This document shows positions 9,214 to 54,512 of a stretch of DNA of 64,000 nucleotides, one piece after another. Numbering within the stretch: the stretch's first letter is position 1; every line of letters begins with the position of its first letter. Source of the stretch: a virus; IMG/VR virus record IMGVR_UViG_3300035517_000183, positions 1 through 64,000 of that record; one strand, written 5' to 3'. The position numbers and the translations under genes were made by a program. The notes under the pieces are model-generated. The model had not been told where the DNA came from. It did no database searches and was given only the letters and a program-made list of their open reading frames with translations.

Positions 9214-9289
9214 AGGTGGTTAATTTAATGGTAGAATGTCGGTGATTAGCAAGCTGATAGTGTCAGTTCGAGTCTGATACCACCAACCA
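9214..9289 (+). tRNA. tRNA-like element (canonical T-arm, acceptor stem, encoded CCA; atypical D/anticodon arms)
   Basis: T-stem GTCAG/CTGAT around T-loop TTCGAGT. Acceptor AGGTGGT/ACCACCA (6 bp), discriminator A, then CCA encoded. D-arm ATTT/GAAT. The anticodon arm only folds with a 9-nt loop (GATTAGCAA), so function is uncertain. Confidence 0.4.
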
Positions 9290-27860: not shown

Positions 27861-30800
27861 CTATAACGCCACATATCCATTGCCGTCACCGCGATTAATA
27901 AACACTCCCGCCGCACCGACTCTTATGCCACAGCTGCCAACGTGAAGCATTATAGAGCCGTCACCGACATAACATACAGTCTTGTTCCAAATAGAACTGA
28001 AACCGTTCTTTGCGATTGTCGTGACGTTTGCAAAATCGGTTTTAACTTTGCCCGTGAGATTGACCCACCAAAATACGGGGATATTTGCGAGCCTTGCGCC
28101 ATCGGCACTTGTCGTTTCGTTGACGTTAAGTTTTATTTGATACGTTCCACTTGTATTTACACGGAAACTTAGCGTAAATGCCACGGTCGCAAAGAAACCA
28201 CCTATCGCTTCCGCTGCATTATCGGGATTAACAATAGAACCGTAATCCTCAAACTTACAGCGTTGCGACTCGGAAGTAACTACTGTGCTGTCTTTGAGTA
28301 ATTGCACGGTAAAATTAGGATAGTTAGTCGGCCATGGCTCCGGCGCAAAGTCAGTGATATTCGCCGATTCGTTGGGGATTAGTACCTTGAAACTTGCATT
28401 TAGAGTTACCGTCGTATTTGTCGGAAGTCCGCCAAGTAAGATTGTCTTGGCAATTTGATTACTGGCTTCATCTAACATACTGCCATCGTAGGTTGCAGAC
28501 AGTGTAAAATAGCCTCTCTGCGTGTCAAGTACATGGCTAACATCGAAGTCAACAACATCTAAGTAGGCGTTACCATCTTCAAGCGAGTCGGCTGCAATGC
28601 GCAATCTTTCTTCGCCGCCGGGACCAAGCATGAACAATCCATCTTCCGACACTTGTATTTTATCGCCGATTTCAAGTGAATTTTGCTTAATCCTTACCGT
28701 GTTGTTGGCTGCGTAGACAGAGCCATCCATCCTCACGCCGAAAGTAGACGGAGTTTTATCTGTGACAGTATCATCTTCGGGGTCGACCCTATCGCCACCC
28801 GCAAAGAACGCCAGTCCACCACCGACTTCATCTTCGCTGTAAGTACCGCTTGACCCGGCGCGAGTAGTAAACTCGCCGAGGCTGTTTTTATCGCCGAATC
28901 TAATGGCCGTAGTCTGAATTAGACCGCCGCTTATATCCGTGTCGTTTTCAAGTGCTTTGCGTAGATAATCATCGCCGATAACATCCGAGATATTTTCACC
29001 GTTGATTGTTGACTGAATAGAAATATCACCTTTGATTGTCAGTTTGCCATCCTGCCACTCCATGAAGTCATTTAATCTATCGCCTATAAACAACCGTGGA
29101 TTGGTGCCGCTCTGACGACCCACAAAGTAATACTCATCCCCGGTGGAAGTTACGCTGTTAAGGTTGGAGATATAAGCCTCATATCCACCGCCGATAACGT
29201 CACGTACTTTTACATACTGACGTTCAGAGTTGCTGTAATTACCATAATGGCAGATAACATCACCAACCTGCGGAATACCCGAGCCGTTAACGTCCGTGGT
29301 GCTTAACAAGATATAATCAACGCCAACGCCAATTACACGCCGCTTATAAAATTTGAGTTGCAAGTTTTCTGCATCAAACCGTTGCGACATAGCCACATCA
29401 TCAATCATAAATAGATTAACGACCGAGCCTTGTTTTTGGTCGAAGTAACAATAATAGCCATCGTCGGTTAACAGCACGTTAGTGACTGTCATTTGCGCTG
29501 CCGATGATATTTCTTTGCCACCCATGACGGATATTTGATTGACAACTAGATTATTGACCGAAAACTCTTGACGTGCTACGTATTTATCAGCTTCAATAAC
29601 GGTATTGCCATCGCCATCACGATAGACACCCCAACCAACGCCCGCGACGCTACCTTGTCGAAAATCGCTGCTTGTAATCTTCCCCGCGAACTGCGTAGGT
29701 GACAGTGATAATTCTTCAATGCCATCTTTGCGCAAATAAAGTTTGTCGCACACGATTTTGACTATCTGTTCTATGTTGGATATGCTTCCGAGTCGGCTGT
29801 AAATCGTGGAAATATCGCTCTGAATTGTGGTAACTGCATTTGTCGACGACTCCACCTCGTCAGACAGAGTGACTTCAACATCAGGCAATAATGCTGCACT
29901 TTCTGACGACGGTTCATTATAGGTGTATGTAATCGCTTGTAAATACAGCGTTTCAGTGGGCGTGTCGGTAATAAATCGCGAGTCTGCAATTCGGACGGAC
30001 GCGCCGACGGTCAGCGAGTCAATTAACTTGCTTGTGCCATCTTCGCCAACTTGATTAACGCGGTTTTTGTCAAGACTAACAACATACGTCGGCTTAATGT
30101 CCTTAACCTCGTCGAGTTCTGAATACTTGTCGTCGTCAAGATAGGACTCCGCCCACAATACATATTGGTGTGGTAGGTCTATGCCGATAAAATAGAAGTG
30201 GTCGCCCGCCTTGCCTTGCGTTTTCGTTGACGGCAAATACAAGCCCGTCGCGTCGTAATCTGCGTCAGACTTTTCGAGCGTGATACGCCAGTGTGACATA
30301 TAACTATGCTTGACTAATTTGCCATTCTCTGCGGTTTCCCACTCGCATAGTTGTTCTTCGTGAACCGGTATCTTTGTCAGTAAGAAGTCATAATCCTCTG
30401 ACGTTGATAATAATCCCGACGAAAAGGCAATTGCTGCCTCGCTGCCTAAGTGGTCGCCAAGTATAGGCTCCCATACGCGCCTTGCATAATCTTCCTCGGT
30501 TTCATTTGCGCGTTTCTCTGTCTGCCATATATTCTTGATAAGAATATCGAAAGTACGGCCAAATAAATCATCGTCGCCCGATACGCTTGCCATCGTAACA
30601 CGAGCCGAAGATACAGTAACCATAACTCGCGAGTAATCTTTGTCGGGGTAGTTGTTTTGCACCGTGCATTCCAACTTGTAATAATACGTACCCTCGGGGA
30701 AATTAGTTGCCGTGTATTCTTCTCCGCTATATTTGTTTACTATCGTGAATTTTTGGCTTTCAATGACAAAATAACCGCTGCTTATATCTTCGAGTTCGTC

Positions 30801-32207
30801 CGTGCGGCCACTGACGGAAACGACAGCTGAGAAGTTCGCTTTCTTATCCGGCGCAACAACAAACTCGGGGCCTATGATTTCAAAGTCTTGCGACTCGTTT
30901 TTCTTGACTCTGATAACTTTGGCGGTGTCGTCCATAGTTGACTCAACTGCGTCTGACGTCACACGCGAAGTAACATCATCGGATGTAACCTGCTCAACAT
31001 ATATCGCTTCATCGGCACGGCCTATGCCGTCAAGTTCAACGCCTTGTATTGTCGGGTAAATATCGTCGTTGTCGTCAAGTCCACCCATCAAAATACCGTA
31101 CAAGGCAATGCTACTACCCGCGGTAATCACAACTTCGCCGTTGTCGTTGACTTCGTATTTGTCGGCAACATATTCGACCGGATTAAAGCGTTCATCGGTA
31201 TGGCCTAAAACGTAAGCCCAACTCGTTTTCGCGTATTCCTCGTCGTAAGGCTCTACCGCGATAGGCTCTACTGTGTCGTCGTGTGGATATGGCGTAATTG
31301 CCGTGCCATCCGTTTCTGTGAGTTGTCGGTTGGGGTTGGTTTTCCATCCTTTGACGTAATCGCGGAATGTCTTGCCTCGCAGTTTGTCAAAGTAGATATT
31401 GCGTAGCTCGGGAATCCAATCCGGGTCGGCTGCAAATGTCGGGTTGTCGGGGTCGACGTCCTTAAAATATCTATAAGGCAAATTCTGGTCGCCCCCACGT
31501 CCGATAAGCATATTGCGAATATCGTCGCTCTGTACTTGACGCTCAAATTTAAGCAGACCGCCATCAAAACCATATTGAAAAATATGCGACACTTCCGTAG
31601 TGGGGTAGCCGACTCGTATAACATACTTTTCTCCGCCTTGTTTTGTGTTATCGTTATCCGTGTGAGGCTCAATCTGCCAACGTACCGACCATAACTCGTA
31701 GTATTTTTGCAAAACACCCCACAGCGTGGAGTGGCTTATCTCTACTGTCGTAGTTTCTACGTCCGACTGCCACTCCGGGTTTAAGTCAAGTGTAATGCTG
31801 TCGCCGTAGTAATAATACAATACGCGGTTAAACAGTTCGCAAAAATCGACCAAATTTAGGCTCACATCGGCTATATATTTGTCGGGTACTGCGGTACCTG
31901 CGTCAAGGGCTTGTATTGTAAAGAAAAACCAGCGCTTTAATTGATAGATTGCCCAATGCTGAAACGTCAACTCAACGGTTGATTTGCGGGATGAATACTC
32001 CTTTGACGCTTGTGGCTTGCGTAGTGGCATGATGTATTTCTCGCCCTTAAATGCAATTTCCCAGTCAAACGAGAAGTCAGGCGCGATTGTACCGTCAATT
32101 TTAATCTTCGCCGTGATATTTTTGTCGTCCATATCCTGCAATGTGCAAGTCGCTTGACTCAGCGTAGCATATTGAGGTAGGTTAAGTTCTGTTATTTCTC
32201 TAATCAT
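27861..32207 (-). CDS. host-specificity / central tail fibre protein (gpJ-like), 1448 aa
   Basis: Very large ORF in the tail module, rich in beta-strand-like content with Gly-rich C-terminal segments. Confidence 0.65.
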   Translation of the reverse strand: MIREITELNLPQYATLSQATCTLQDMDDKNITAKIKIDGTIAPDFSFDWEIAFKGEKYIMPLRKPQASKEYSSRKSTVELTFQHWAIYQLKRWFFFTIQALDAGTAVPDKYIADVSLNLVDFCELFNRVLYYYYGDSITLDLNPEWQSDVETTTVEISHSTLWGVLQKYYELWSVRWQIEPHTDNDNTKQGGEKYVIRVGYPTTEVSHIFQYGFDGGLLKFERQVQSDDIRNMLIGRGGDQNLPYRYFKDVDPDNPTFAADPDWIPELRNIYFDKLRGKTFRDYVKGWKTNPNRQLTETDGTAITPYPHDDTVEPIAVEPYDEEYAKTSWAYVLGHTDERFNPVEYVADKYEVNDNGEVVITAGSSIALYGILMGGLDDNDDIYPTIQGVELDGIGRADEAIYVEQVTSDDVTSRVTSDAVESTMDDTAKVIRVKKNESQDFEIIGPEFVVAPDKKANFSAVVSVSGRTDELEDISSGYFVIESQKFTIVNKYSGEEYTATNFPEGTYYYKLECTVQNNYPDKDYSRVMVTVSSARVTMASVSGDDDLFGRTFDILIKNIWQTEKRANETEEDYARRVWEPILGDHLGSEAAIAFSSGLLSTSEDYDFLLTKIPVHEEQLCEWETAENGKLVKHSYMSHWRITLEKSDADYDATGLYLPSTKTQGKAGDHFYFIGIDLPHQYVLWAESYLDDDKYSELDEVKDIKPTYVVSLDKNRVNQVGEDGTSKLIDSLTVGASVRIADSRFITDTPTETLYLQAITYTYNEPSSESAALLPDVEVTLSDEVESSTNAVTTIQSDISTIYSRLGSISNIEQIVKIVCDKLYLRKDGIEELSLSPTQFAGKITSSDFRQGSVAGVGWGVYRDGDGNTVIEADKYVARQEFSVNNLVVNQISVMGGKEISSAAQMTVTNVLLTDDGYYCYFDQKQGSVVNLFMIDDVAMSQRFDAENLQLKFYKRRVIGVGVDYILLSTTDVNGSGIPQVGDVICHYGNYSNSERQYVKVRDVIGGGYEAYISNLNSVTSTGDEYYFVGRQSGTNPRLFIGDRLNDFMEWQDGKLTIKGDISIQSTINGENISDVIGDDYLRKALENDTDISGGLIQTTAIRFGDKNSLGEFTTRAGSSGTYSEDEVGGGLAFFAGGDRVDPEDDTVTDKTPSTFGVRMDGSVYAANNTVRIKQNSLEIGDKIQVSEDGLFMLGPGGEERLRIAADSLEDGNAYLDVVDFDVSHVLDTQRGYFTLSATYDGSMLDEASNQIAKTILLGGLPTNTTVTLNASFKVLIPNESANITDFAPEPWPTNYPNFTVQLLKDSTVVTSESQRCKFEDYGSIVNPDNAAEAIGGFFATVAFTLSFRVNTSGTYQIKLNVNETTSADGARLANIPVFWWVNLTGKVKTDFANVTTIAKNGFSSIWNKTVCYVGDGSIMLHVGSCGIRVGAAGVFINRGDGNGYVAL

Positions 32208-38521: not shown

Positions 38522-41500
38522 TTAGACGAGTTGGACGTTGACAACCTTTGACGCCTTTGAGTTTCGCGCGGATATAACCTTGCTTACATCGTCTGCAATA
38601 TTCTCGCAATGTTGGGCGATAAGTTTGCACTGTGTCAACGACTCCGCTGTGTGTCGCTCAATCATCTGTAATTGAGTGACTGACTGTTGTTGCAAGGCGA
38701 TAGCGTCTGCAAAATCAACATCAGACTTGCTGCTGATGCTGCTTTCAAGCAAGGCACGTATCGTAGCGACGTTCGCAGCAATACCCGGCACAAAACTTAC
38801 GTAGTAATTGTTCGTGTTCGTCATTGCTGCAAGGCCGTTAACGCTTTCTTCTGACGCTTCGGCAAAGTTGCGTGTAATACCGCTCGTATCACTGTCGCTT
38901 GAAAGTGAACTTACGTCAACGCCCGCCGCCTTGAGGCTTGCAATTGTTGTGCGGAGTCCGCTGTCTATGTTGTCAATCGCATCGGGTATTCCCGCTGTTA
39001 CGGCTTGTATTTCCGCTGCCGTGAGTTCTCCATCTTTGGCGAGTTCGTCAATTTGGTCGAAAAACGGCTGCAACTGTGCTTCAACAACTTTAGCCATGAG
39101 TGATTTAACGACCATGCTTTGAATCATGTCGTTGAATTGTTCTTTAATGGCGTCCGTTGTGCTTGAAAATGACAAATACGCATCGAGCCACGCTTCGGCG
39201 AAGTCTTGTGCTGCCGAGGCTAAATCCGAGTCGGTAAAATACTCCGATAACTCGCTTGCCATGTCTTTTATCTCATCGGCTGCGTCACGCGCACTTTCGA
39301 GATAGTCTTGGATTTTATCATCATCGGCTTTCTTGCCCTTACTGCGCTCTGCTTCGGCTTGTGCCAAATACGCCTTTTGCTGCGCTTGTAGGCTCGCAAG
39401 GCGTTGCTTGTAATTGCGTATATAGTCCGAGCCAAATGCTTTGTCTTGTGCGTTTTCAAGCCTATCATAAGCGTAAGACAATTGGTCGATTAAGTCTTGC
39501 TGCCGTTCAATTTCTTCATTGGCTTTCTTGACTTTTCGGCTTGAAATTACGGATACAATGGCCGTTAATGCACCTACTGCGGCACCAATTGCAGTGACCC
39601 ACCACATAGTCGAGCTGATGGCGACCGCGATAGCCAAAATCGCAGACATGACAGCCGACATTGTTTGTAGTCCCGTGACAGCTCCGTTAATCAATATTCC
39701 TATTTCGCTGTCGGAAGCTACATCCAATGCGTCAGAAACTTTCTGTATTGCGTCAGCCATAGAATTACAAGCACTCGAAGCGTCCGTAAGGCTCTGCTGG
39801 AACTCCGACATATATTTACGCGCTTCATCTTCTGCATTAGTGATGTTTTGGCTTGACTTTTCTTCTTTTTTCTTGGCCTTGCTGACTTTCTGCTCCGCTT
39901 TCAGTGTATTTGCAACCGCCGTATTAAGTGCCAATTGCGCTTGTAGTCCTTCTTCGGTGTCGATTAAGCCTTGCTCGCGAAGTTGGTTGACTTTGCTTTG
40001 CGCCGCTTCTTGCTGCTGCATCGCAGTGCTGTATTCGAGTTCGGCTGTTAGCGTTTCTTCCGAGTCGACCGAAAATGACTTACGTGCGTCACTCGCTTTT
40101 TTGAGTGCATCGCGATAGCCTTTGACGCTCGCAATGACGTGTTTTATCGGGTTGCGCGATAATTGTTCTTCGTTGATTTTGTCAAGGGCAGATACAAGCG
40201 TTTTTAAGTTTGTTGCATCCTCCAAATCTTTCTTGGAGTCAATTAACTCTTTGAGCTTTGTCTTGATACGAGCCAGTGTTGCGGATGAAACTTTATCTAA
40301 GTCTTGGAAGATTTTCACATAATCGTCCGAGGCTTTAAATTCCGCTTCGTCCACCCCTGCAAGTTGCTGTTGCTCGCGCTGTCGCGATAATGCAAGCCAT
40401 CTCTGCTTTTCTTCGTCCGCGAGATTGGACTTGATAATATCGGCACGTTGCTTCTCCGCTGCTTCTATAATCTCTGTGCGCTGCTGTTCAAAGTCTTTCG
40501 CCTTTGCGAGTTCTTTCTGCCATGTAGATATTCTGTTGGCGTACTCCGACATACCGCTCTGGATAATCGACTCTGCTGTTGGTTGATTGTCCTTTGTGAT
40601 AAAATCTTTGTAGGTTTCGTAGATTTTTTGCAGTTTGGCATAGTCTACCGTTCCGAGTCTGCGGTTGATAGCCTCGCTTACATCTACACCCTTAAAGACT
40701 TCCTTGATTTGGTCTATTATCGACTGCTTTAAATCTTCGCCGTTAGTGCCGTAAACGGCAACTGTGAGTTTTGCCGAGAGTTCTCTATTACCTGTCGACT
40801 CAAAGATTTTCTCAAAAAACTCATTGGCTGTTTTAAGCCGTGAAACTCGCGACTGCAATGCTTTAAGTCGTTTTTCCGCTGCCTTGGTCACTTCATCAAT
40901 GCTTATATTTTCGAGTTGAAAAACAGCCTCGTCAATATCTTTGCCCAATGACGGAAATAAATTCTTGCCCTTTGCGCCTTTCAGGCCTTGCAGTTTGCGC
41001 ATTTGAGCGATGAAATTCTGTAAGTTCTGTTGTAGCGTAGCCGAATCAAACGGAGTCTTAAACTCGAAGCCGTATTTACGCGCTTTCGCTTGTAACTCTT
41101 TGATGGTATTACCAAACGCCGACTGTATCTGACTTTTGGCTGCTACTTCACCGATTTTATCTTTGAGTTTGTCGTACTCGTTATAGAGTTTTGTCGTAAG
41201 GCTTATTTCCTCTTTGAGATTTTGTAAGCGTGGGTCTTGCGTGTTACCGCCGCTTTTTGAGCCTTTGGCGAAGCCTTTAATCAAGTCAAATAGAGCCGAA
41301 AGCATTTTGACTTCATTAGACGCATTTTCAAGTTCTTCGTCCGACACGGGCTTTAATATGCCTACGCCAATACCGCTATTCATTTGCGCCTTGTCGAGTT
41401 GCAGTTCTTTGACCTTGCTTTTAGCCTCATCCAGCGAGGTCTTTATGCGGTCTGCGTATGCGTCAATTTCCTCTGTCGCTTCCATTAGATACTGCTTCAT

Positions 41501-44107
41501 TTGGTCGGGCAGTATGCTGTATTGTGCTGCAAGCAACGATACTCTCTCGCGTAAAATGTTCACGGTTCTGTCGGTCGGCACTAAGTTTTCGTACTCTTTG
41601 ATAACCTGACGCACCGCGTTTTTCTGTGCGATAGATAGTTTACTCCACACTTTCTCGTCCTTGATTTTGTCGAAGAAAATTGCGGATATACGCGAAGTTG
41701 CATCTTTAACGTCCGACTCTGTGCTCGCAAATGCGTCGCTCCATGCCGTACCGAGGACTTCTTTAAGGAAATTGGTGTATTCGTTGATGGTGGCGTTTGT
41801 TGTCTTGCGAGAAAAAAGCAAGCTACCCGGTTGTGCGCCCGTGATAGTCAGATTTTCGACTTTCTTTCCGACATCTTCCCATGCTTTTGAATACTCCTGC
41901 AACTCACCCGTCTGACGTGCCATGCTTTGCGTTGTGTTGCGGATTTCTGCGTCCATGTTGCGCTGCATTTCAACAATTTGGGCGAGGTTTTTACCATCTG
42001 CAAGTTTTACAGCTTGTAATACACCTAATTGTCGCTCGCTTAGATAGCCGAATGTTTCATCAATAGACTGACGAACGACTTGAAATGCAGATTTAGTTGT
42101 CGTAGATGAAAGTGTTTTTATCCGCGAGAATAAGTCGCTGATTTGGTCGTCCGTGATTTGCATCTCTTTTATTTCGTTGCGATACTCCATTGGCCACCCC
42201 GGCGATTTGAGGTTGGATCTTGCCTTGCGCTCAAACGTCGTTATTTCTCCGCTTCGTTCTTCAATAATCGCATCAACTTGCTGCTGCATGGTACGCTTGG
42301 CAATGTACTGCTCTATCGCTGCTGTGAGTTCTGCGTAGCCATCTTTTTGTTTGCGTAGATTTTCGATAGTCAGTTCTTCGACGGGGATTATATTCTGATA
42401 CGTGCGTTGCAATTCTTCAAGCGCATCTCGTTGCTGCTTGCTGCCATCGGCTGCGTTTACTGCCTCATCCGCGAGCCGCTTGAAATTGTAGACCGACTGC
42501 GCCGACTCTGCTGCACCGCTCTTTTGAATGTTTTCGAGGTTTTCCCTGAATCGTTTGGCCTTGTCGTCAGCAAACACGAGATATGTAACGATTTCGCTCA
42601 ATGCCAAAATTACCCACATCCACGGATGGGCTAAAAACGCAGCTTTAAGGCTGTACATCGCTTTTGAGAATATATTAGTCGCGCTCGCCGCTTGTATCTG
42701 CGCTTTTATATACATTGCGTCCAGCATAATATTTGTTCGCTTCCATGCTGCGGCGTTTTTTGTTGCGATAATCTCTCGATTAGCGGCGACAAGTTTCGCG
42801 TTTAGTGTGGCGATATGTGCTTTGTTGGCTGCGCTTGCGGCGTTTGTTGCGATATTAGCGTTAAGCACGGCGAGTTTGTAAACGCCAAAAGTTACAGCCG
42901 CCTGCCCAATCACAAGGCCGACATTACGCCAGTTTTTCATTAAGTCTGTCGCCCACTGTATGGCGATTTTCATACCGCTGTTGACTACGCCTGTATTACC
43001 GATAGAGTCGTACATCACCGAAGCTGCATCACCGAGTTTCGCCCATAAACCGTAAAGTGTATTGCCTTGCTTTTCCTGCATATTATAGAATATGCCGCCT
43101 TTTTCGGTCATGTCGTTAAACACGTCGGCCACAACATCGAAGTGTACCATGCGCTTTTTAATCATCTCAAAGGTTTCGCCCGTGCTGATGGTTTTACCTT
43201 TGATTTCCGATAGTTTCTCCGACAGTAATTCAAGCATAGGAATACCCATCATGGCAAACTGACGTAACTCTTTGGCGTTCATTACGTTTGACGCCTTAGT
43301 TTCACCGTATGCCAAAATAAGCCTATCCATGTCAACACCCAGACCGACCGAAACATCTGCGAGTCGCTTGGTGGTTTCAAATAGCTTGTCGGTTTCAACG
43401 CGGTATGCTGCCAATCGCTTGGTGTATGTCGTTAAGTCGAGAATCTTAACCGGGGATTTAAGCGCGAATGACTTAATTTCGCCGAAGATAGAGTTGGCCT
43501 TTGATTGGTCTTGAATGATAGCCCCCAACGACACTTTTTGCAGTTCAAACTGTGCTGTAACCTCGCGCACTTGCGTTAGGAAATTACCCAGTGTAGCCAC
43601 CGACGCATAAACGCCCATACGCTGGATTAATCGCGAAATATAAGTTGATTGGTTGGCGTATGCTCGGTTAACCTTACTTGCTGCATCCGCTTGTTTTTTT
43701 GCGGCTGCCTCAGCCTTTTGCGCTGCCTTGATTTCCGCGTCGACTGCTCGCTGTGAGGCTTTTTCGATATTCGACAACTCTTTATGTGTCGACTGTAAGG
43801 CTCCGCGAAGTCGTACATACTCACTTAGAATTTGCCTTGCACGCCCCGTATATCTTCCCTCGGCGTCGACCGCCGTAAGTTCTGCTTTTGATAGCGAGTT
43901 CCACTCCTTGGTGAGTTCCTTGACGCGCTTTTTAATATCCTTGATATTATCATCCGTATTTTTGATATTCAAGATTAACGGATTGGCGTTGATTTCCGCT
44001 TGCCACGTTTTTAGCAATTTGCGCGAATCTCCGCTTGCTCGTTTGATAGCATTATCAAGGTCAAAGTTAACAGGGAAAACAAGACTATCGGTACTTGTTG
44101 TTGCCAT
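38522..44107 (-). CDS. tail tape measure protein (1861 aa)
   Basis: Huge A/K/E/Q-rich coiled-coil ORF with hydrophobic segments, preceded by overlapping chaperone ORFs. Confidence 0.8.
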   Translation of the reverse strand: MATTSTDSLVFPVNFDLDNAIKRASGDSRKLLKTWQAEINANPLILNIKNTDDNIKDIKKRVKELTKEWNSLSKAELTAVDAEGRYTGRARQILSEYVRLRGALQSTHKELSNIEKASQRAVDAEIKAAQKAEAAAKKQADAASKVNRAYANQSTYISRLIQRMGVYASVATLGNFLTQVREVTAQFELQKVSLGAIIQDQSKANSIFGEIKSFALKSPVKILDLTTYTKRLAAYRVETDKLFETTKRLADVSVGLGVDMDRLILAYGETKASNVMNAKELRQFAMMGIPMLELLSEKLSEIKGKTISTGETFEMIKKRMVHFDVVADVFNDMTEKGGIFYNMQEKQGNTLYGLWAKLGDAASVMYDSIGNTGVVNSGMKIAIQWATDLMKNWRNVGLVIGQAAVTFGVYKLAVLNANIATNAASAANKAHIATLNAKLVAANREIIATKNAAAWKRTNIMLDAMYIKAQIQAASATNIFSKAMYSLKAAFLAHPWMWVILALSEIVTYLVFADDKAKRFRENLENIQKSGAAESAQSVYNFKRLADEAVNAADGSKQQRDALEELQRTYQNIIPVEELTIENLRKQKDGYAELTAAIEQYIAKRTMQQQVDAIIEERSGEITTFERKARSNLKSPGWPMEYRNEIKEMQITDDQISDLFSRIKTLSSTTTKSAFQVVRQSIDETFGYLSERQLGVLQAVKLADGKNLAQIVEMQRNMDAEIRNTTQSMARQTGELQEYSKAWEDVGKKVENLTITGAQPGSLLFSRKTTNATINEYTNFLKEVLGTAWSDAFASTESDVKDATSRISAIFFDKIKDEKVWSKLSIAQKNAVRQVIKEYENLVPTDRTVNILRERVSLLAAQYSILPDQMKQYLMEATEEIDAYADRIKTSLDEAKSKVKELQLDKAQMNSGIGVGILKPVSDEELENASNEVKMLSALFDLIKGFAKGSKSGGNTQDPRLQNLKEEISLTTKLYNEYDKLKDKIGEVAAKSQIQSAFGNTIKELQAKARKYGFEFKTPFDSATLQQNLQNFIAQMRKLQGLKGAKGKNLFPSLGKDIDEAVFQLENISIDEVTKAAEKRLKALQSRVSRLKTANEFFEKIFESTGNRELSAKLTVAVYGTNGEDLKQSIIDQIKEVFKGVDVSEAINRRLGTVDYAKLQKIYETYKDFITKDNQPTAESIIQSGMSEYANRISTWQKELAKAKDFEQQRTEIIEAAEKQRADIIKSNLADEEKQRWLALSRQREQQQLAGVDEAEFKASDDYVKIFQDLDKVSSATLARIKTKLKELIDSKKDLEDATNLKTLVSALDKINEEQLSRNPIKHVIASVKGYRDALKKASDARKSFSVDSEETLTAELEYSTAMQQQEAAQSKVNQLREQGLIDTEEGLQAQLALNTAVANTLKAEQKVSKAKKKEEKSSQNITNAEDEARKYMSEFQQSLTDASSACNSMADAIQKVSDALDVASDSEIGILINGAVTGLQTMSAVMSAILAIAVAISSTMWWVTAIGAAVGALTAIVSVISSRKVKKANEEIERQQDLIDQLSYAYDRLENAQDKAFGSDYIRNYKQRLASLQAQQKAYLAQAEAERSKGKKADDDKIQDYLESARDAADEIKDMASELSEYFTDSDLASAAQDFAEAWLDAYLSFSSTTDAIKEQFNDMIQSMVVKSLMAKVVEAQLQPFFDQIDELAKDGELTAAEIQAVTAGIPDAIDNIDSGLRTTIASLKAAGVDVSSLSSDSDTSGITRNFAEASEESVNGLAAMTNTNNYYVSFVPGIAANVATIRALLESSISSKSDVDFADAIALQQQSVTQLQMIERHTAESLTQCKLIAQHCENIADDVSKVISARNSKASKVVNVQLV

Positions 44108-48758: not shown

Positions 48759-49124
48759 TTAAGCCTCTTTAATGAAAGTGATACGTGTAAGCTTGTTTTC
48801 TTGGGCTGTGGTGACGGTAGCCTTAGAAAGCGACGCATAAAATTCTCCGGCCACAACGATGTCGACGGTTGCGCCATTCTCGCCGATAACCACGTCTTGG
48901 TACAGCAGACCAATAGGGGAAGTGGCGTTAAAGGTTACAGTACCGCCCACTTTGTCAATAGATACGGGCGTTCCTGCGGGGTATTCCTTGCCGACTGTAT
49001 TTGTCGAGTCGACGGGAACATACGCGCCAGCCGGGTAAAGTTGGATGTTACCGCCAAAGACCGGCATACGACCCAACGTAGCTTCGGAGCGCGAATTACT
49101 TAGTGAATTTCCATGTACTGCCAT
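48759..49124 (-). CDS. head decoration-like protein
   Basis: 121 aa, beta-rich, directly upstream of the capsid gene. Confidence 0.4.
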   Translation of the reverse strand: MAVHGNSLSNSRSEATLGRMPVFGGNIQLYPAGAYVPVDSTNTVGKEYPAGTPVSIDKVGGTVTFNATSPIGLLYQDVVIGENGATVDIVVAGEFYASLSKATVTTAQENKLTRITFIKEA

Positions 49125-49153
49125 AGTTCTTCAAAAATGTATTAGACTTATAT

Positions 49154-49867
49154 TCAACTCTCTTTGGGTAAACGGCCGGATTCGCGCAAGGCTTTAATTG
49201 TTGCGTCTAAATCCACGCTGTTTTGACCCCCGCCGTCACTCGCAATCGGCTTACCAACTTCGCCGCCTTTATCCAACACTGCGCGTTCAAAGAAATAGTC
49301 AAATTCCTTACGGAGTTCATCTTTTGACAACTTTCTTCCGCCTTGATCGAAGTTCCTCATAGCGAAATCCCACGAGTTTTTTTTCTCTTTCGAGTAGGAG
49401 TTAATCCACGCTTCTTTGTTGATGTCTGCAAGTACAGAGTCGATAACCGACTGAGAATTTCTCTCGGACTCGTATTTATCGAGTCTTTCTGTTATTGAAC
49501 TTACAGCCTTAGAAACCGACTCGGCAATCATTGCTGCCATGTTAGGGTATTCCGGCTCTTTCGACTGCGGTGTGACTTGTTCTTGCTGCGGATTAGTTTT
49601 GATAGTTTCAACCGGAGTTGACTGCGGTTTTAGCGTGTCAATTTGAGTTTCCAAATCTTTAATGCGTTGAGAATACTCGCCGCGTAATTTGTCTGTTTCG
49701 CCTTGAAACGCCTTTAGCATAGGTTCAGCCCCTTTTACAAAGTTCTCAATCTGTGCTTCGTCTGTTATGAAAGTTGTTGCGAAAGTAGCTACCCCTTCAA
49801 AAGCCTTTTCACTAATCCCCAAGTTTTTATACCCTTGTTGCAGTGCTTCCTTGATTTTCTGTTTCAT
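49154..49867 (-). CDS. scaffolding protein
   Basis: 237 aa, coiled-coil and charged, first gene of the head module. Confidence 0.5.
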   Translation of the reverse strand: MKQKIKEALQQGYKNLGISEKAFEGVATFATTFITDEAQIENFVKGAEPMLKAFQGETDKLRGEYSQRIKDLETQIDTLKPQSTPVETIKTNPQQEQVTPQSKEPEYPNMAAMIAESVSKAVSSITERLDKYESERNSQSVIDSVLADINKEAWINSYSKEKKNSWDFAMRNFDQGGRKLSKDELRKEFDYFFERAVLDKGGEVGKPIASDGGGQNSVDLDATIKALRESGRLPKES

Positions 49868-50035
49868 TATACAACTATATTAATATTCACAAATCCCTTG
49901 AAAATCCCGAATGTTCGGAGTCATGGTATTTTTTAAGTTTTTCACTTGCCGCAAATATATGATACTTAATTGAATTATGCAACAAATTTAAATAAAAACT
50001 TTAATAAAATTATTGTATATTTGTCGCGTAAATAA

Positions 50036-52822
50036 TTGGGAATGGCGTTTAAATTTGTTAACAACAGTATTTCATTACCGAATCTATACCCGACAGTCAC
50101 TCGAAAACTCCCCACGGTTAAAGATAAAAACGGCTGGGCGCAGGTCGGTGACTTCAAGTTGCGCAACTCGGTAGACCTAATTCCGCAGCCGGGATTACAA
50201 GAGAATCTTTGTGCTTGCGAAGCAAACCTTGTATTCATTTGTGGTGCAGCCACATCAGGCAAGGCACAGCCATACGATGCAAAAGTGCTTACACCGCGCG
50301 GTTTCGTAGAGATGGGGTCGCTTCGGGTTGGCGACACAATAACCGGCTCAAACGGGAAGCCTCAAACGATATTGCGCATATTTGAGCAAGGCGAGCGGGA
50401 TGTCTGTGAGTTGAAATTCGCGGATGGCAGCGTTGTTGAGTGTGACTACGAACACTTGTGGAATGTCACAGCGACAAGGGCTAAATGTTCACACATTAAT
50501 ACAATTCTAACTACAAATCAAATAATAGAAGAGCTTAAAGGTCGTGGCGTAGATTATGGCAGTATTAGAAATATATACGTACCACTGCCCAATCCAATAG
50601 AGTTTGACTGCAACGAAAACTTGCCGCTTAGCCCATATTTGCTGGGCGCGATACTCGGTGATGGTTGCACCCGTATAAAAGATTGTAAGCCTCGAATATA
50701 CACGCCAGATACAGAGATATTAGACCGAATTAGGGCTGATGGGTACGATGTCAAACGCATCCCGTCCTCTGATTGCGGCTGGACTTTTGAAAATCACAGT
50801 GTGAAAGACTCGCTTGTAACTTTAGGACTTTGGAATTGCCTGTCTTACGACAAGTTTGTCCCGGACGCGTATTTAAAAGCGAGCGTTTACGATAGGCTTG
50901 CACTATTGCAGGGTTTATTAGATACAGACGGGAGTGTTTCATACAAGAGTTTGGCGGAGTATTCCACTTCAAGTTGCAAACTGGCAACGCAAGTCAGGGA
51001 TTTGGTGTTTTCCTTGGGTGGGTATTGTTATATGTCAGCACGAATACCCAAATATACCTACAATGGCAATAAAAAAGATGGGCATAAATCATACAGGTTG
51101 TTTATTTCATTCGCCAATCAGCAGCAAGCGTTCTCTATTAGCCGCAAAAAAGACAAATGCACGACACAGAGAAACACTCGATATTGCAACGGCAGAAGAA
51201 TAGTCGATTACAAGTATATCGGCAAAAAGCAGTGCAGGTGCTTGCTTGTGTCTAACCCCGACCACTTATACATCACTAACGATTATATTGTCACGCATAA
51301 TACTTTTGGAATGTATATGACAGCACTCTACGGCGTTGACAAAAACGGATTTACGTCTATTCTATTCTCGTTCCGCGAAAAAGATAGCAAAAAAGGCTCA
51401 TCAATCTTCCGTGACGGCGTTGAGGTGCTGGGGAAAATGAAAGGCTGTGAGTATGCCTCATCAGACAATATTAGTTTCCGTTTCCCAAAATCAAACTCGC
51501 AGTTGCAACTTGCGAATTTCAATTATAATGTTGCGAATCCCACCGAGTGGAGCGACTTCAAAGAGGATATGAAGAAAAAGCAGGCGAGCCTTATCATGGT
51601 CGACGAAGCAACGAAGATGCAAGAAAAGGCCTTGCTTTATATCTTCTCGCGTAACCGTGACGGCTCGGGAATGCAACCGCAAATGATTTGTTCTTTTAAT
51701 CCCGAAAACGAGCATTTTACTACTGACGTAATAAAAGCGGCGGGCTTTCTTGATAGCGGATGGCACGTGCGTAAAGAAATGGAGGGTAGGCTTATATATT
51801 TCTTTATGAAAGGTAAGTCGTTCAAAGATGCAGTCTGGGGATTAACACCCGAAGATGTCGCGGCTCGAGCGGGTATTGAAATCTCGCAAAAAGACCGCGA
51901 AGCAGGACTGACAGAAGCCGACATGGTTAAGTCATTCACGGTGTTTACGGGCGAGGCGTCTGAAAACAGAATCCTTGTAGCCATTACCGGCGGTCAGTCG
52001 GTTGCGAATCTATATGCTGTCGGCAAAGAGCAGAGCGACATTTTGAAACGCGCATATTTCGGCCCCATCCAAAAAGAGGATATAAACGTCAGCAAACAGA
52101 TGATTTTACAGTTATGGGAGAATCCTATTGACGACGATGAAAATATGTACGCCACATTGGACGTTTCAGGCGGTTCGCTTGAAAGTGATAATACTCCGAT
52201 GGTGATATGGCGAGGCTCGCAAGTCATTGATATTAAATTCTTCCGAGGCGACTCGAAGCAATTAGTCGATTGGATAGACGCAATGTTAAACACTTACAAT
52301 ATTCCCGTTGAGAATTTTGCATACGACGCAACGGGCATAGGTTACTATCTACGCGCTTACACTTCGGGGCGACCGATAACAGCCAATAAACGGTGCTTGC
52401 AAGAGTATGACAGCAATGGCAATCCGGTGCAAATTGACGAGTATTTTAATCTTCGCTCGCAATTACTCGGCAAAACAGAGGTCATGCTTAAAAAGGGTGA
52501 AATCTCGTTTGCTATCGACCAAAATAGCGTAATCCCCTACGGCAAAAACGGTCAGTCGCGTAGGCTTATAGATGTGCTTTCGGATGAAATAGCCGTGTTC
52601 TCTACGTCTACGCGCAACAAGAAAATATACTACCGTTCAAAGGATGAATACAAGGCAAAATACGGCTCGTCGCCCGACTTGATAGACGCCATTTCATACA
52701 AGGCCGTATTCATGCTTGACACGCGAGGCAGAAAACAGCCCGCAACAGTCAACTCTGACGAAGCTTATAACGCCCTTTGGAGTGGATATGCTCCGCGCTC
52801 GGTTGGTCGTGGATGGTGGTAG
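50036..52822 (+). CDS. terL: terminase large subunit interrupted by an intein
   Basis: Removing residues 77-422 reconstitutes the Walker A motif GAATSGK|T. A TAtaTTTG promoter element lies at 50008-50015. Confidence 0.85.
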   Translation: MGMAFKFVNNSISLPNLYPTVTRKLPTVKDKNGWAQVGDFKLRNSVDLIPQPGLQENLCACEANLVFICGAATSGKAQPYDAKVLTPRGFVEMGSLRVGDTITGSNGKPQTILRIFEQGERDVCELKFADGSVVECDYEHLWNVTATRAKCSHINTILTTNQIIEELKGRGVDYGSIRNIYVPLPNPIEFDCNENLPLSPYLLGAILGDGCTRIKDCKPRIYTPDTEILDRIRADGYDVKRIPSSDCGWTFENHSVKDSLVTLGLWNCLSYDKFVPDAYLKASVYDRLALLQGLLDTDGSVSYKSLAEYSTSSCKLATQVRDLVFSLGGYCYMSARIPKYTYNGNKKDGHKSYRLFISFANQQQAFSISRKKDKCTTQRNTRYCNGRRIVDYKYIGKKQCRCLLVSNPDHLYITNDYIVTHNTFGMYMTALYGVDKNGFTSILFSFREKDSKKGSSIFRDGVEVLGKMKGCEYASSDNISFRFPKSNSQLQLANFNYNVANPTEWSDFKEDMKKKQASLIMVDEATKMQEKALLYIFSRNRDGSGMQPQMICSFNPENEHFTTDVIKAAGFLDSGWHVRKEMEGRLIYFFMKGKSFKDAVWGLTPEDVAARAGIEISQKDREAGLTEADMVKSFTVFTGEASENRILVAITGGQSVANLYAVGKEQSDILKRAYFGPIQKEDINVSKQMILQLWENPIDDDENMYATLDVSGGSLESDNTPMVIWRGSQVIDIKFFRGDSKQLVDWIDAMLNTYNIPVENFAYDATGIGYYLRAYTSGRPITANKRCLQEYDSNGNPVQIDEYFNLRSQLLGKTEVMLKKGEISFAIDQNSVIPYGKNGQSRRLIDVLSDEIAVFSTSTRNKKIYYRSKDEYKAKYGSSPDLIDAISYKAVFMLDTRGRKQPATVNSDEAYNALWSGYAPRSVGRGWW
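50264..51301 (+). mobile_element. intein with LAGLIDADG homing-endonuclease domain (346 aa) in the terminase P-loop
   Basis: Hint N-block AQPYDAKVLTPRG...VGDTI. Two LAGLIDADG motifs (LLGAILGDG, LQGLLDTDG). C-terminal IVTHN followed by extein Thr. Unusual Ala at intein position 1. Confidence 0.8.
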
Positions 52823-52829
52823 CTAAACA

Positions 52830-54512
52830 GTGAGTTTTATAAAACAGAGAGTGAATATGTACATATCAGAACTATTAGTAAAAGATTTTTGGTATCGGCG
52901 CGTAAATGCCGACGCCGTTACAATTCCAAATCCGACAAATCCAAATGGCTATCGTCACGTGAATTTTACGGATGGAATCCGCAGACGCGCCCTTACTAAC
53001 GATGATTTTATCAACGAGTTAGAACTTACGGCGCACGAAATCAACTCGCGCTATTGGTCGACTCGTCCTATTCGCGAAATACGAGAGCGTGATGTCGTGC
53101 TTGAAGATGGCGCAAAAAAGAAAGTCAAAGAGTGGGCGGTTACAGGCTATGACGACATGGAAACAGTCCGACTCGGTTTTCAAAAGCGTTTTTCAATGGC
53201 GAAAGCGTCCTTTTTTGCGGCCAACGGCTTTAATATAAGCAACGAAACCACCGACAGCAAGAGTTATGATACTTTGATGTCATGGAAAGATATCGCAGGG
53301 CTTGACGTGGGCTTTTTCGAGTTGGTTCAGTCGTGCTTCCAAAGCGGCGACGCAGCAATCTATCTTTACCAGACCGGCAACACGATAGAATACAAGGTTT
53401 TTTCGTCACTCTATGGTGATAAACTGTATTTTCACTATGACGAGAATTTTAACCCGGTCGGCGTAAGGGAATATACGTTGCGAGGCCAACGCGCAGTCGA
53501 TATTTACCGCGTATCTTCCGTTGAAACATGGGTGCAAATCAACCCCGAGGACGAAAAGACAAAATCATGGGTAAACAAAGTCGGCGGATGGTTTGCGCGT
53601 GGTATAGACTGGCATACTTCCGCTGTTAGCGAGGATGGATGGCGCAGAATTGCTAACCGAGAGAATCAGATAGGAGACAAACTCAATCCGTTTATCTATT
53701 TCAGAATTAACGATGTTGTGTGGGGGTCGGCGCAAGAAGATATAAGCGGACTTGAACGAGCAATGAGTTATGTTGCAGAGGAAAGCAAAAACATCGCATT
53801 TCCAGATATGTTCGTCAAGGCTACTAAAATTGACAATATGCCCGCTATCGGAGCGCACGGACGCACATGGGCAGCTCGCGGAACGGCAGATGAAATAAAA
53901 GCGGCTGACGTTAAGGCGATTGAAAAACCAAACATGAGCGACATTGCCACCGTAGACCTCAAAAACCGTCTTGACAGTATTCTACGCACCACCATGAGCG
54001 TATTTATTGACCCCGAGATAGTCAAATCAAGCGATATAAGCGGCGTGGGAATTAAAGTCTTGTACGGTCCCGAAATTCAGTTTGCACAAAATATGTGGCC
54101 GCAATTCTATTCGCAACTCAAATATATGGTCGAAGTGTTTAAGGCTTTAGTTGCCAAGATAGAGAAAAACGGCGCAATCGCAACGCTGCGGACTTCTATT
54201 TGGCAAGAGATTTATCTACCCGAAGATGAAGCAGCCAAAGTAAAACTCGAACTCGACCAATTATACGCAAGAGCAAAATCGCGTAAGGCTGTCATGGCCG
54301 ACTTGAATAACCAGCATTTGGGCGACGCAGAGCAAATCATCAAAGAATGGATTGAAGAACTTGACATTAAGGCTCGCATTCCAGCCATTGCTTCCGCGGA
54401 AGTACAAGCGGAGTACGGTGAGGGCGACCAATCGGCTCAGGTTAATGATGAAATCGACCCCAATAGGCCTAATATAACAAATCAAGCCGCAGGAATCTCC
54501 GTATTGGAGTGA
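52830..54512 (+). CDS. portal protein
   Basis: 560 aa immediately downstream of terL. Confidence 0.6.
   Translation: MSFIKQRVNMYISELLVKDFWYRRVNADAVTIPNPTNPNGYRHVNFTDGIRRRALTNDDFINELELTAHEINSRYWSTRPIREIRERDVVLEDGAKKKVKEWAVTGYDDMETVRLGFQKRFSMAKASFFAANGFNISNETTDSKSYDTLMSWKDIAGLDVGFFELVQSCFQSGDAAIYLYQTGNTIEYKVFSSLYGDKLYFHYDENFNPVGVREYTLRGQRAVDIYRVSSVETWVQINPEDEKTKSWVNKVGGWFARGIDWHTSAVSEDGWRRIANRENQIGDKLNPFIYFRINDVVWGSAQEDISGLERAMSYVAEESKNIAFPDMFVKATKIDNMPAIGAHGRTWAARGTADEIKAADVKAIEKPNMSDIATVDLKNRLDSILRTTMSVFIDPEIVKSSDISGVGIKVLYGPEIQFAQNMWPQFYSQLKYMVEVFKALVAKIEKNGAIATLRTSIWQEIYLPEDEAAKVKLELDQLYARAKSRKAVMADLNNQHLGDAEQIIKEWIEELDIKARIPAIASAEVQAEYGEGDQSAQVNDEIDPNRPNITNQAAGISVLE

What the first reader, a model, noticed from the sequence alone, without database searches (positions are those of the whole stretch)
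50264..51301. LAGLIDADG intein inserted in the terminase large-subunit Walker A, with a non-canonical Ala at position 1
Excising residues 77-422 joins GAATSGK to T and restores a perfect P-loop. The insert has Hint blocks, two LAGLIDADG motifs and a terminal HN followed by Thr+1. The first intein residue is Ala (gca) rather than Cys or Ser, which implies a class-2/3-type splicing mechanism or a recent mutation at the splice junction.
Basis: partly seen in the sequence, partly recalled or inferred. Interest (0 to 1): 0.55.

Follow-up and report, generated by a model that had tools for sequence, protein, structure and literature searches.

The report
Class 3 intein in phage terminase
The phage's DNA-packaging enzyme gene is interrupted, exactly inside its ATP-binding loop, by a self-splicing mobile protein element (a class 3 intein with a homing endonuclease) whose odd first residue, alanine, is normal for that well-known class, so the finding is real but ordinary.

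Summary
Window 50264..51301 (+) encodes a 346-aa insert between Lys and Thr of the Walker A motif (GAATSGK|T) of a 926-aa large terminase (TerL, 50042..52822). Of the 120 closest TerL homologs, 105 have an uninterrupted GxxxxGK[T/S]. The other 15 carry an insert at exactly this site.

The insert is a bifunctional intein. Its AlphaFold2 model (pLDDT 94.7) best matches PI-SceI, TliVMA and PI-PfuI, and also the class 3 mini-inteins MchDnaB-1 and Msm DnaBi1. Pfam LAGLIDADG_3 scores above its cut-off, and both LAGLIDADG aspartates are present.

Ala1 is not a recent mutation and does not indicate class 2. The intein has the complete class 3 signature:
- DxxHxW in block B (Trp66)
- the block F Cys326, which aligns with the catalytic Cys118 of Msm DnaBi1
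- Thr344-His345-Asn346
- Thr+1

Among 82 database relatives, 66 begin with Ala, 81 have the Trp, 77 the Cys, 76 the Thr, and 77 have Thr or Ser at +1.

Class 3 inteins in the P-loops of terminases and helicases have been described since 2010. This is therefore a new member of a known kind, here in a Bacteroidota-type phage. Splicing and homing are inferred, not shown.

The parts
50042..50263 (+). N-extein of the large terminase (TerL residues 1-74 from the ATG). It ends with Walker A residues GAATSGK, encoded at 50243-50263.
   Evidence: ORF. The 926-aa gene call P0001 is identical. The alignment with intein-free homologs is colinear up to the Lys.
50264..50599 (+). N-terminal splicing (HINT) half of the intein, residues 1-112. 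It contains Ala1 (50264-50266), block A (AQPYDAKVLTPRG) and block B DYEHLW (50444-50461), which includes His64 and the WCT Trp66 (tgg, 50459-50461).
   Evidence: Aligns with class 3 DnaB inteins 6RIX and 6BS8 over residues 4-70. Trp is invariant in 15/15 alleles and 56/56 rows of alignment A1. The AF2 model is all beta strand here, pLDDT about 98.
50600..51187 (+). LAGLIDADG homing endonuclease domain, intein residues about 113-308. Motif 1 is LLGAILGDG (50639-50665, Asp133). Motif 2 is LLQGLLDTDG (50903-50932, Asp222).
   Evidence: Pfam LAGLIDADG_3 scores 30.4 bits against a cut-off of 22.5. Asp133 and Asp222 are conserved in 54 and 55 of 56 relatives. Foldseek matches PI-SceI, TliVMA, PI-PfuI and I-DmoI. 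This is the segment missing from the three mini-intein alleles.
51188..51301 (+). C-terminal splicing part of the intein, residues 309-346. Block F is CRCLLVSNPDHLY (51233-51271) with the WCT Cys326 (tgc, 51239-51241). Block G is YIVTHN (51284-51301) with the WCT Thr344, His345 and Asn346.
   Evidence: Aligns with VRCVEVDNPEHLY...THN of Msm DnaBi1, placing Cys326 on Cys118. Invariant in all 15 alleles. In alignment A1, Cys is 55/56, Thr 55/56, His 56/56 and Asn 55/56.
51302..52822 (+). C-extein of TerL, including the stop codon. Thr+1 (act, 51302-51304) is both the last Walker A residue and the +1 splicing nucleophile. Walker B LIMVDEAT lies at 51590-51613. The nuclease domain follows.
   Evidence: The spliced 582-aa sequence aligns end to end (97-100% coverage, 55-68% identity) with about 580-aa intein-free homologs. 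It hits phrog_979 terminase large subunit at 1e-26. The AF2 model (pLDDT 84.7) matches Sf6 gp2, D6E and T4 gp17 large terminases, best E = 4e-16.

Best explanation
The element is a class 3 intein carrying a LAGLIDADG homing endonuclease. It sits in the 'classic' P-loop site of a phage large terminase, between the Walker A Lys and Thr.

**Proposed splicing pathway** (inferred by homology with the MP-Be DnaB and Msm DnaBi1 inteins):
1. TerL is translated as a 926-aa precursor. Its ATP-binding loop is split, so the precursor cannot package DNA.
2. The block F Cys326 attacks the Lys(-1)-Ala1 peptide bond, not residue 1, and forms a thioester branched intermediate. Block B His64 and Trp66 help activate this step.
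3. The N-extein is passed to the hydroxyl of Thr+1.
4. Asn346 cyclises and releases the intein.
5. An O-to-N acyl shift recreates GAATSGK-T. The product is an active 580-aa TerL (from the ATG) and a free 346-aa intein.

**Proposed mobility.** The freed intein's LAGLIDADG domain cuts intein-free terL alleles of co-infecting related phages at the conserved Walker A coding sequence. Repair then copies the intein in (homing). This would explain its scattered distribution in the TerL family.

**Shown here:** the exact insertion site, the HINT plus LAGLIDADG architecture, the full class 3 residue signature, an intact reading frame, and the sporadic distribution.

**Inferred:** actual splicing, the role of Cys326 as nucleophile, and endonuclease activity.
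For: **Site.** 105 of 120 homologs have an uninterrupted GxxxxGK[T/S]. The other 15 have an insert with identical boundaries.

**Fold.**
- The AF2 intein model has pLDDT 94.7 and pTM 0.92.
- The top Foldseek PDB matches are PI-SceI (6e-17), TliVMA and PI-PfuI, then the class 3 inteins MchDnaB-1 and Msm DnaBi1.

**Class 3 signature.**
- The best PDB sequence matches are the class 3 inteins 6RIX, 6RIY and 6BS8.
- The alignment places D61/H64/W66 on D62/H65/W67 of Msm DnaBi1, C326 on C118, and T344-H345-N346 on T137-H138-N139. The roles of those residues are given in PMC6195587.
- The class definition is a non-nucleophilic residue 1, the WCT triplet and Thr/Ser+1, with most members in ATPase P-loops, including phage terminase large subunits (PMC2807308).

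**Conservation.**
- WCT, His-Asn and Thr+1 are invariant in the 15 alleles, while position 1 varies (A, M or E).
- In 82 wider relatives, found in PhoH, DnaB, terminases and other proteins: Ala1 66, Trp 81, Cys 77, Thr 76, Thr/Ser+1 77.

**Endonuclease.** LAGLIDADG_3 scores above its cut-off, and both catalytic Asp residues are conserved.

**Host gene.**
- The spliced product has a TerL fold.
- A portal gene lies immediately downstream.

**Gene is maintained.**
- The ORF is intact, and the 8.8-kb locus is 100% identical in an independent sample.
- Intein GC content is 0.442, against 0.458 for the C-extein and 0.444 for the window.

**Mobility.**
- Intein-bearing TerLs sit at seven or more places in the extein tree, with near-identical empty alleles (distance 0.03-0.04).
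- Inteins only 51% identical occupy exteins that are 99% identical.

**Precedent.** The TerL1-a intein lies between the invariant Lys and Thr of the P-loop. Representative inteins at five other TerL sites were shown to splice, and two of them to cleave intein-free alleles (PMC5050341).
Against: - No biochemical evidence exists for this protein. Splicing, the branched intermediate and DNA cleavage are all inferred.
- Pfam Hint models barely register: Hint_2 has E = 0.04, below its cut-off. Recognition of the HINT part therefore rests on PDB and PHROG sequence matches and on the predicted fold.
- At the block F position four residues after the Cys, this clade has Ser330. MP-Be and Msm DnaBi1 have Asp there, and mutating that Asp to Ala in MP-Be significantly reduced splicing. 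In the relatives this position is Asp 21, Ser 17 and Ala 14 of 56, so the difference is probably tolerated.
- The nearest empty allele found (P0002) shares only 41 of 60 nucleotides around the site. No natural homing target of this particular endonuclease has been identified.
Confidence: 0.9

Rival explanations
1. The insert is a decayed class 1 intein. A recent Cys/Ser1-to-Ala mutation killed splicing, so terL is an unspliced pseudogene and the phage is defective.
For: Ala cannot perform the N-S/N-O acyl shift that starts class 1 splicing. Pfam Hint models score below their cut-offs.
Against: - Position 1 is Ala, Met or Glu in all 15 alleles and Ala in 66 of 82 relatives. None of the 15 has Cys, Ser or Thr there.
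- The co-varying WCT triplet is complete.
- The 2781-nt ORF has no frameshift or stop, and the exteins align end to end with functional-length homologs.
- The intein has diverged from P0008 about as much as the extein has (64% against 65% identity), which fits purifying selection on both.
- An identical locus occurs in a second sample.
Confidence: 0.03
2. The insert is a class 2 (KlbA-like) intein. The +1 residue attacks the N-terminal junction directly, with no block F intermediate.
For: It has Ala1, as the KlbA inteins do.
Against: - In the class 2 mechanism Cys+1 makes the attack, and the KlbA orthologs lack the WCT triplet (PMC2807308).
- This intein has Thr+1 and a complete WCT.
- Its closest sequence and structure relatives are established class 3 inteins, not KlbA.
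Confidence: 0.03
3. The intein is functional, but its splicing is conditional. In this reading it acts as a post-translational switch, for example redox- or zinc-sensitive, that times terminase activation, and is not simply a selfish element.
For: - Extra cysteines lie next to the catalytic Cys326. Cys324 (a CxC motif) is present in all 15 TerL alleles and in Parabacteroides phage PF672P2. Cys60 in block B is present in 42 of 56 relatives.
- Msm DnaBi1, a homolog, is reversibly inhibited by a Cys48-Cys118 disulfide under oxidative stress (PMC6195587).
Against: - The Msm partner Cys48 aligns with Val47 here, not with a Cys.
- No coordinates were available, so Cys-Cys distances in the model could not be measured.
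- 105 of 120 close homologs do without any intein, so no regulatory role is required.
- The host is probably an anaerobe-associated Bacteroidota bacterium, where oxidative control is less obvious.
Confidence: 0.1

Closest known systems
Class 3 inteins with the WCT triplet. The prototype is the mycobacteriophage Bethlehem DnaB intein; a structural reference is the Mycobacterium smegmatis DnaBi1 intein (PDB 6BS8).
   Same: - A non-nucleophilic first residue. It is Ala here and in Msm DnaBi1, Pro in MP-Be.
- Block B His and Trp, block F Cys, block G Thr-His-Asn, and Thr/Ser+1.
- Insertion in an ATPase P-loop.
- Msm DnaBi1 gives a direct sequence match (E = 3e-7), with the catalytic residues aligned.
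   Different: - The host protein is TerL of a Bacteroidota-type phage, not a DnaB helicase.
- It retains a full LAGLIDADG domain, whereas Msm DnaBi1 is a mini-intein.
- Ser330 replaces the block F Asp, and there is an extra Cys324.
- Over the splicing blocks the Foldseek alignments with MchDnaB-1 and Msm DnaBi1 show only 20-29% identity.
Mycobacteriophage TerL1-a P-loop inteins, and actinobacteriophage class 3 terminase inteins in general (Kelley et al. 2016; Actinobacteriophage intein survey, bioRxiv 2025).
   Same: - The same logic and the same site: between the invariant Walker A Lys and the nucleophilic Thr of TerL.
- A LAGLIDADG endonuclease is present.
- Sporadic distribution, with intein-free alleles in close relatives.
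- Terminase inteins of Mycobacterium phages Phrappuccino and Settecandela match the full length at 35% identity.
   Different: - A different TerL family: phrog_979, with only a weak Terminase_6N match.
- A different phage and host lineage.
- Identity to any actinophage intein is about 35-38% or less.
The intein in the 'hypothetical protein' PF672P2_00026 of Parabacteroides phage PF672P2, and the homologous ORF of PF672P1 (OP172820, OP172819).
   Same: - The closest cultured-phage counterpart.
- An orthologous TerL (36% identity across the spliced protein).
- An Ala1 intein at the same GK|T site, with EDHLW, ECRC and VVTHN|T.
   Different: - Intein identity is only 37%.
- The GenBank record names neither the terminase nor the intein.
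PI-SceI (VMA1) and other class 1 bifunctional LAGLIDADG inteins.
   Same: The overall two-domain architecture, a HINT domain with a LAGLIDADG endonuclease inserted. These are the best full-length structural matches (E = 6e-17, TM 0.67).
   Different: - Class 1 chemistry (Cys1), with Asp rather than Cys at the block F position.
- About 15% sequence identity.
- Different host proteins.

Membership tests
Class 3 intein | The first intein residue is not Cys, Ser or Thr. | tested here: met
   gca (Ala) at 50264-50266. The 15 alleles have A, M or E at this position.
Class 3 intein | WCT triplet: Trp at block B position 12, Cys at block F position 4, Thr at block G position 5. | tested here: met
   Trp66, Cys326 and Thr344 align with Trp67, Cys118 and Thr137 of Msm DnaBi1. 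They are invariant in 15/15 alleles and present in 56, 55 and 55 of the 56 rows of alignment A1.
Class 3 intein | [quoted passage not shown] | tested here: met
   act (Thr) at 51302-51304. 77 of 82 relatives have Thr or Ser.
Class 3 intein | Block B His (position 10) and a C-terminal His-Asn. | tested here: met
   His64, His345 and Asn346.
Class 3 intein | HINT fold of the splicing domain. | tested here: met
   AF2 model with pLDDT 94.7. Foldseek matches to intein splicing domains, including the class 3 inteins 6RIX, 6RIY and 6BS8 and hedgehog 1AT0. Pfam Hint_2 alone is below its cut-off.
Class 3 intein | Splicing that strictly requires the block F Cys and proceeds through a block F branched thioester intermediate. 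| not testable with these tools
   This needs expression of wild type and C326A/S, T+1A and N346A mutants, as was done for MP-Be DnaB.
Class 2 (KlbA-type) intein | Cys+1 as the direct attacking nucleophile, and no WCT triplet. | tested here: not met
   Thr+1 and a complete WCT triplet. Definition from PMC2807308.
Class 1 (standard) intein | Cys, Ser or Thr at position 1 to start the N-S/N-O acyl shift. | tested here: not met
   Ala1. No allele has a nucleophile there.
LAGLIDADG homing endonuclease (intein-borne, double-motif) | Two LAGLIDADG motifs, each with a catalytic acidic residue, in an alpha-beta-beta-alpha-beta-beta-alpha repeat fold. | tested here: met
   LLGAILGDG (Asp133) and LLQGLLDTDG (Asp222). 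Pfam LAGLIDADG_3 scores 30.4 bits against a cut-off of 22.5. Fold matches to PI-SceI, PI-PfuI and I-DmoI.
LAGLIDADG homing endonuclease (intein-borne, double-motif) | Site-specific cleavage of the intein-free allele. | not testable with these tools
   There is only indirect support: the sporadic distribution and allele turnover.
Phage large terminase subunit (TerL) | An N-terminal ASCE ATPase with Walker A and Walker B motifs, plus a C-terminal RNase H-like nuclease. | tested here: met
   Walker A is restored on excision, and Walker B is LIMVDEAT. phrog_979 hits at 1e-26. The AF2 model matches Sf6 gp2, D6E, T4 gp17 and TerL nuclease domains. Pfam Terminase_6N is only a sub-threshold hit. PDB searches by sequence, both single-sequence and profile, found no terminase.
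Phage large terminase subunit (TerL) | Location in a head-morphogenesis gene neighbourhood. | tested here: met
   A portal gene (phrog_64) starts 8 nt downstream. An ORF matching the major-head-protein family phrog_909 lies upstream on the opposite strand.

The most novel reading that the evidence does not exclude
In this clade of Bacteroidota phages the TerL P-loop site may be a hotspot of ongoing intein turnover. Inteins only 51% identical occupy terL genes that are 99% identical, alongside empty alleles and mini-inteins. In addition, the cysteines conserved in this clade next to the catalytic Cys326 (the Cys324-x-Cys326 motif and Cys60) might form a redox- or metal-sensitive trap. That would make genome packaging conditional on intracellular state, turning the intein into a regulatory switch and not a purely selfish element.
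Probability: 0.08. Interest if true: 0.55.

Novelty: new member of a known kind. Interest (0 to 1): 0.2.

Why it matters
- **Annotation.** The 926-aa ORF should be annotated as TerL plus an intein. Without that, the gene can end up unnamed, as in the closest cultured relatives: the TerL genes of Parabacteroides phages PF672P1 and PF672P2 are deposited as 'hypothetical protein'.
- **Host range of the class.** It extends the documented range of class 3 P-loop inteins from actinophages and mycobacteria to Bacteroidota-type phages.
- **Material for engineering or comparison.** The finding supplies a family of 15 allelic class 3 inteins, 12 full-length and 3 natural mini-inteins of 138-143 aa. These could be used for protein engineering or for studying homing dynamics.
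- **Mechanism.** Nothing here challenges current understanding of intein chemistry.

Tried and rejected
1. A megablast of 49000-54500 against the phage collection found nothing.
2. NCBIfam gave only sub-threshold matches to intein-containing DnaB, GyrA and RecA models. These add nothing beyond saying 'intein-like'.
3. PDB sequence searches with the spliced TerL, both as a single sequence and as a 37-sequence profile, found no terminase. TerL identity was established by PHROGs, tblastn to annotated terminases and fold search.
4. A second intein in the window was looked for with tblastn, using this intein as query. There was no hit below E = 0.9.
5. Recent horizontal acquisition was checked through composition. 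Intein GC is 0.442, against 0.458 for the C-extein and 0.444 for the window, so there is no signal.
6. The 'recent mutation' and class 2 readings were considered and rejected (see the rival explanations).
7. I considered measuring Cys-Cys and Cys-junction distances in the AF2 model, but coordinates are not exposed by the tools.
Full report
**1. What is in the sequence**

A single open reading frame runs from 50036 (TTG) or 50042 (ATG) to 52822 on the + strand. The database gene call for the identical protein (P0001, 926 aa) uses the ATG. Homolog N-termini agree with that start.

At 50243-50263 the frame encodes GAATSGK. Codon 50264-50266 is gca (Ala). At 51293-51301 it encodes Thr-His-Asn, followed by act (Thr) at 51302. 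Removing 50264..51301 (346 codons) gives GAATSGK-T, a complete Walker A motif. Its residue numbers (77-422) count from the TTG; from the ATG they are 75-420.

**2. The boundaries are confirmed by empty sites**

A search with the conceptually spliced 582-aa protein returned 857 homologs. Of the 120 best, 105 are about 580 aa and align over 97-100% of the query at 55-68% identity. Each has an uninterrupted GxxxxGK[T/S] at this position.

The other 15 carry an insert with exactly the same two boundaries. Twelve are full-length inteins of 337-347 aa, and three are mini-inteins of 138-143 aa that lack the central domain.

**3. The host gene is a large terminase**

- The spliced protein hits PHROG 979, 'terminase large subunit', at E = 1e-26.
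- It matches annotated terminases of Bacteroides and Phocaeicola phages at E = 4e-18.
- Pfam Terminase_6N is only a sub-threshold hit, and PDB sequence searches found nothing.
- An AlphaFold2 model of the spliced protein (pLDDT 84.7) matches large terminases across both the ATPase and nuclease domains. The matches include Sf6 gp2 (4e-16), D6E, T4 gp17, HK97 and P74-26.
- Walker B (LIMVDEAT) lies at 51590-51613.
- A portal gene (phrog_64) starts 8 nt downstream.

**4. The insert is a bifunctional intein**

- The 346-aa insert matches intein-bearing terminase PHROGs at 7e-28 and 9e-21.
- It has 675 phage records with tblastn matches, mostly full-length at about 35% identity. These lie inside helicases, terminases, PhoH, gyrase and other genes.
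- Pfam LAGLIDADG_3 scores above its cut-off, 30.4 against 22.5 bits.
- The AlphaFold2 model is confident (pLDDT 94.7, pTM 0.92).
- Its best PDB matches are the two-domain inteins PI-SceI (6e-17), TliVMA/PhoVMA and PI-PfuI. Next come the class 3 mini-inteins MchDnaB-1 and Msm DnaBi1, then I-DmoI and hedgehog HINT.
- Both LAGLIDADG motifs are present: LLGAILGDG at 50639-50665 and LLQGLLDTDG at 50903-50932. Their acidic residues Asp133 and Asp222 are conserved in 54 and 55 of 56 relatives.

**5. Ala1 is explained: this is a class 3 intein**

Tori et al. (PMC2807308) define class 3 by four features. They are a non-nucleophilic first residue, a co-varying Trp (block B) / Cys (block F) / Thr (block G) triplet, Thr or Ser at +1, and usual insertion in ATPase P-loops. 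They explicitly include phage terminase large subunits among the hosts.

The best PDB sequence matches of the insert are class 3 inteins: 6RIX and 6RIY (MchDnaB-1) and 6BS8 (Msm DnaBi1), at E = 9e-9 to 3e-7. The alignments place the residues as follows (residue roles from PMC6195587):

| This intein | Msm DnaBi1 |
|---|---|
| D61, H64, W66 | D62, H65, W67 |
| C326 | catalytic C118 |
| T344, H345, N346 | T137, H138, N139 |

Across the 15 allelic TerL inteins the Trp, the Cys, Thr-His-Asn and Thr+1 are invariant. Position 1 varies: Ala in 11, Met in 3 and Glu in 1. That pattern is what a non-catalytic first residue predicts.

In 82 more distant relatives with both ends aligned, the hosts include PhoH, DnaB and terminases. 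Position 1 is Ala in 66, Trp is present in 81, Cys in 77, Thr in 76, and Thr or Ser at +1 in 77. Ala is therefore the normal first residue of this family.

- The 'recent mutation' reading is rejected.
- So is class 2, whose members lack WCT and whose mechanism uses Cys+1.
- The basic residue before the Cys (Arg325), the His at +8 from the Cys and the aromatic residue at +10 (Tyr336) also match MP-Be and Msm.
- The one departure is Ser330, where those two have Asp. In the relatives this position is Asp 21, Ser 17 and Ala 14 of 56.

**6. Mechanism (inferred)**

1. The precursor TerL has a split P-loop and should be inactive.
2. Cys326 attacks the Lys-Ala1 bond and forms a thioester branch.
3. 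The N-extein is transferred to Thr+1.
4. Asn346 cyclises.
5. An O-to-N shift restores the Walker A motif.

Kelley et al. describe the TerL1-a intein as sitting between the invariant P-loop Lys and Thr, which they call a 'classic' P-loop insertion. They showed that representative inteins at five other TerL sites splice, and that two of them cleave intein-free alleles (PMC5050341). A 2025 survey counts 293 terminase inteins and 287 class 3 inteins among actinobacteriophages.

**7. Evidence that the element is maintained and mobile**

- The ORF is intact.
- The whole 8.8-kb locus is 100% identical in an independent sequencing run.
- The intein's GC content matches its host gene.
- Intein and extein are about equally diverged from P0008, at 64% and 65% identity.
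- Intein-bearing TerLs occur at seven or more separate places in the extein tree, next to near-identical empty alleles. Examples are P0112 with P0058 (distance 0.026) and P0032 with P0014 (distance 0.039).
- P0021 and P0022 have exteins 99% identical but inteins only 51% identical. That indicates allele replacement or independent invasion.
- The nearest empty allele to the window (P0002, locus L003) shares 41 of 60 nt around the site.

**8. Context**

- The closest cultured relatives are Parabacteroides phages PF672P1 and PF672P2. Their TerL carries a homologous Ala1/WCT intein at the same site, but it is deposited as 'hypothetical protein'.
- The window also carries a Bacteroidota-style integrase, an SNF2-methylase fusion and a D5-like primase-helicase. 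It looks like most of a phage genome of about 65 kb.
- A review notes that TerL of one crAss-like phage group (the Delta group) contains an intein (PMC10136315).

**9. Verdict**

This is a new member of a well-described kind. Interest is low for a specialist.

The modest points of interest are the host lineage, the natural series of full-length, mini and empty alleles, and the extra cysteines next to the catalytic Cys (Cys324 and Cys60). Those cysteines could be tested for redox or metal control, by analogy with Msm DnaBi1.

Splicing, the nucleophile role of Cys326 and endonuclease activity remain inferences.

Noticed in passing
Homologs P0021, P0022, P0032 and P0014 (not in the window): The TerL exteins of P0021 and P0022 are 99% identical, but their inteins at the same P-loop site are only 51% identical. 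P0032 has an extein 93% identical to both and an intein 49-52% identical. P0014 is a near-identical empty allele. This suggests intein allele replacement or repeated invasion.
   Followed up: partly
Homologs P0010, P0012 and P0073 (not in the window): Three natural class 3 mini-inteins of 138-143 aa sit at the same TerL site. They lack the LAGLIDADG domain but keep the WCT triplet and THN|T.
   Followed up: partly
Window 50441-50443 (Cys60) and 51233-51235 (Cys324): There are extra cysteines near the catalytic Cys326. The Cys324-x-Cys326 motif is present in all 15 TerL alleles and in phage PF672P2. Cys60 in block B is present in 42 of 56 relatives, many of which have a Cys-Cys pair there. These may form a redox or zinc trap, but this was not tested.
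   Followed up: partly
Window 9214-9286 (+): Rfam reports a tRNA here (39.3 bits, gathering score 29). ARAGORN found no tRNA anywhere in the window.
   Followed up: no
Window 16942-19134 (+): A 730-aa ORF fuses an SNF2-type helicase (SNF2-rel_dom plus Helicase_C) to an N6/N4 DNA methylase domain.
   Followed up: no
Window 27861-32207 (-) and 38522-44107 (-): Two very large ORFs, 1448 and 1861 aa, have no Pfam match at E <= 0.001. They are possibly tail or tape-measure proteins or injected proteins.
   Followed up: no
Window 3624-4883 (-): An integrase-like ORF has Arm-DNA-bind_5 and Phage_int_SAM_5 domains. No catalytic-domain family appeared at E <= 0.001. It suggests a temperate lifestyle.
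   Followed up: no
L001 1504-4344 (OP172820.1 24864-27704): PF672P2_00026 of the cultured Parabacteroides phage PF672P2 is a 946-aa TerL with a class 3 intein, but it is annotated 'hypothetical protein' in GenBank. The homologous ORF of PF672P1 is annotated the same way.
   Followed up: yes
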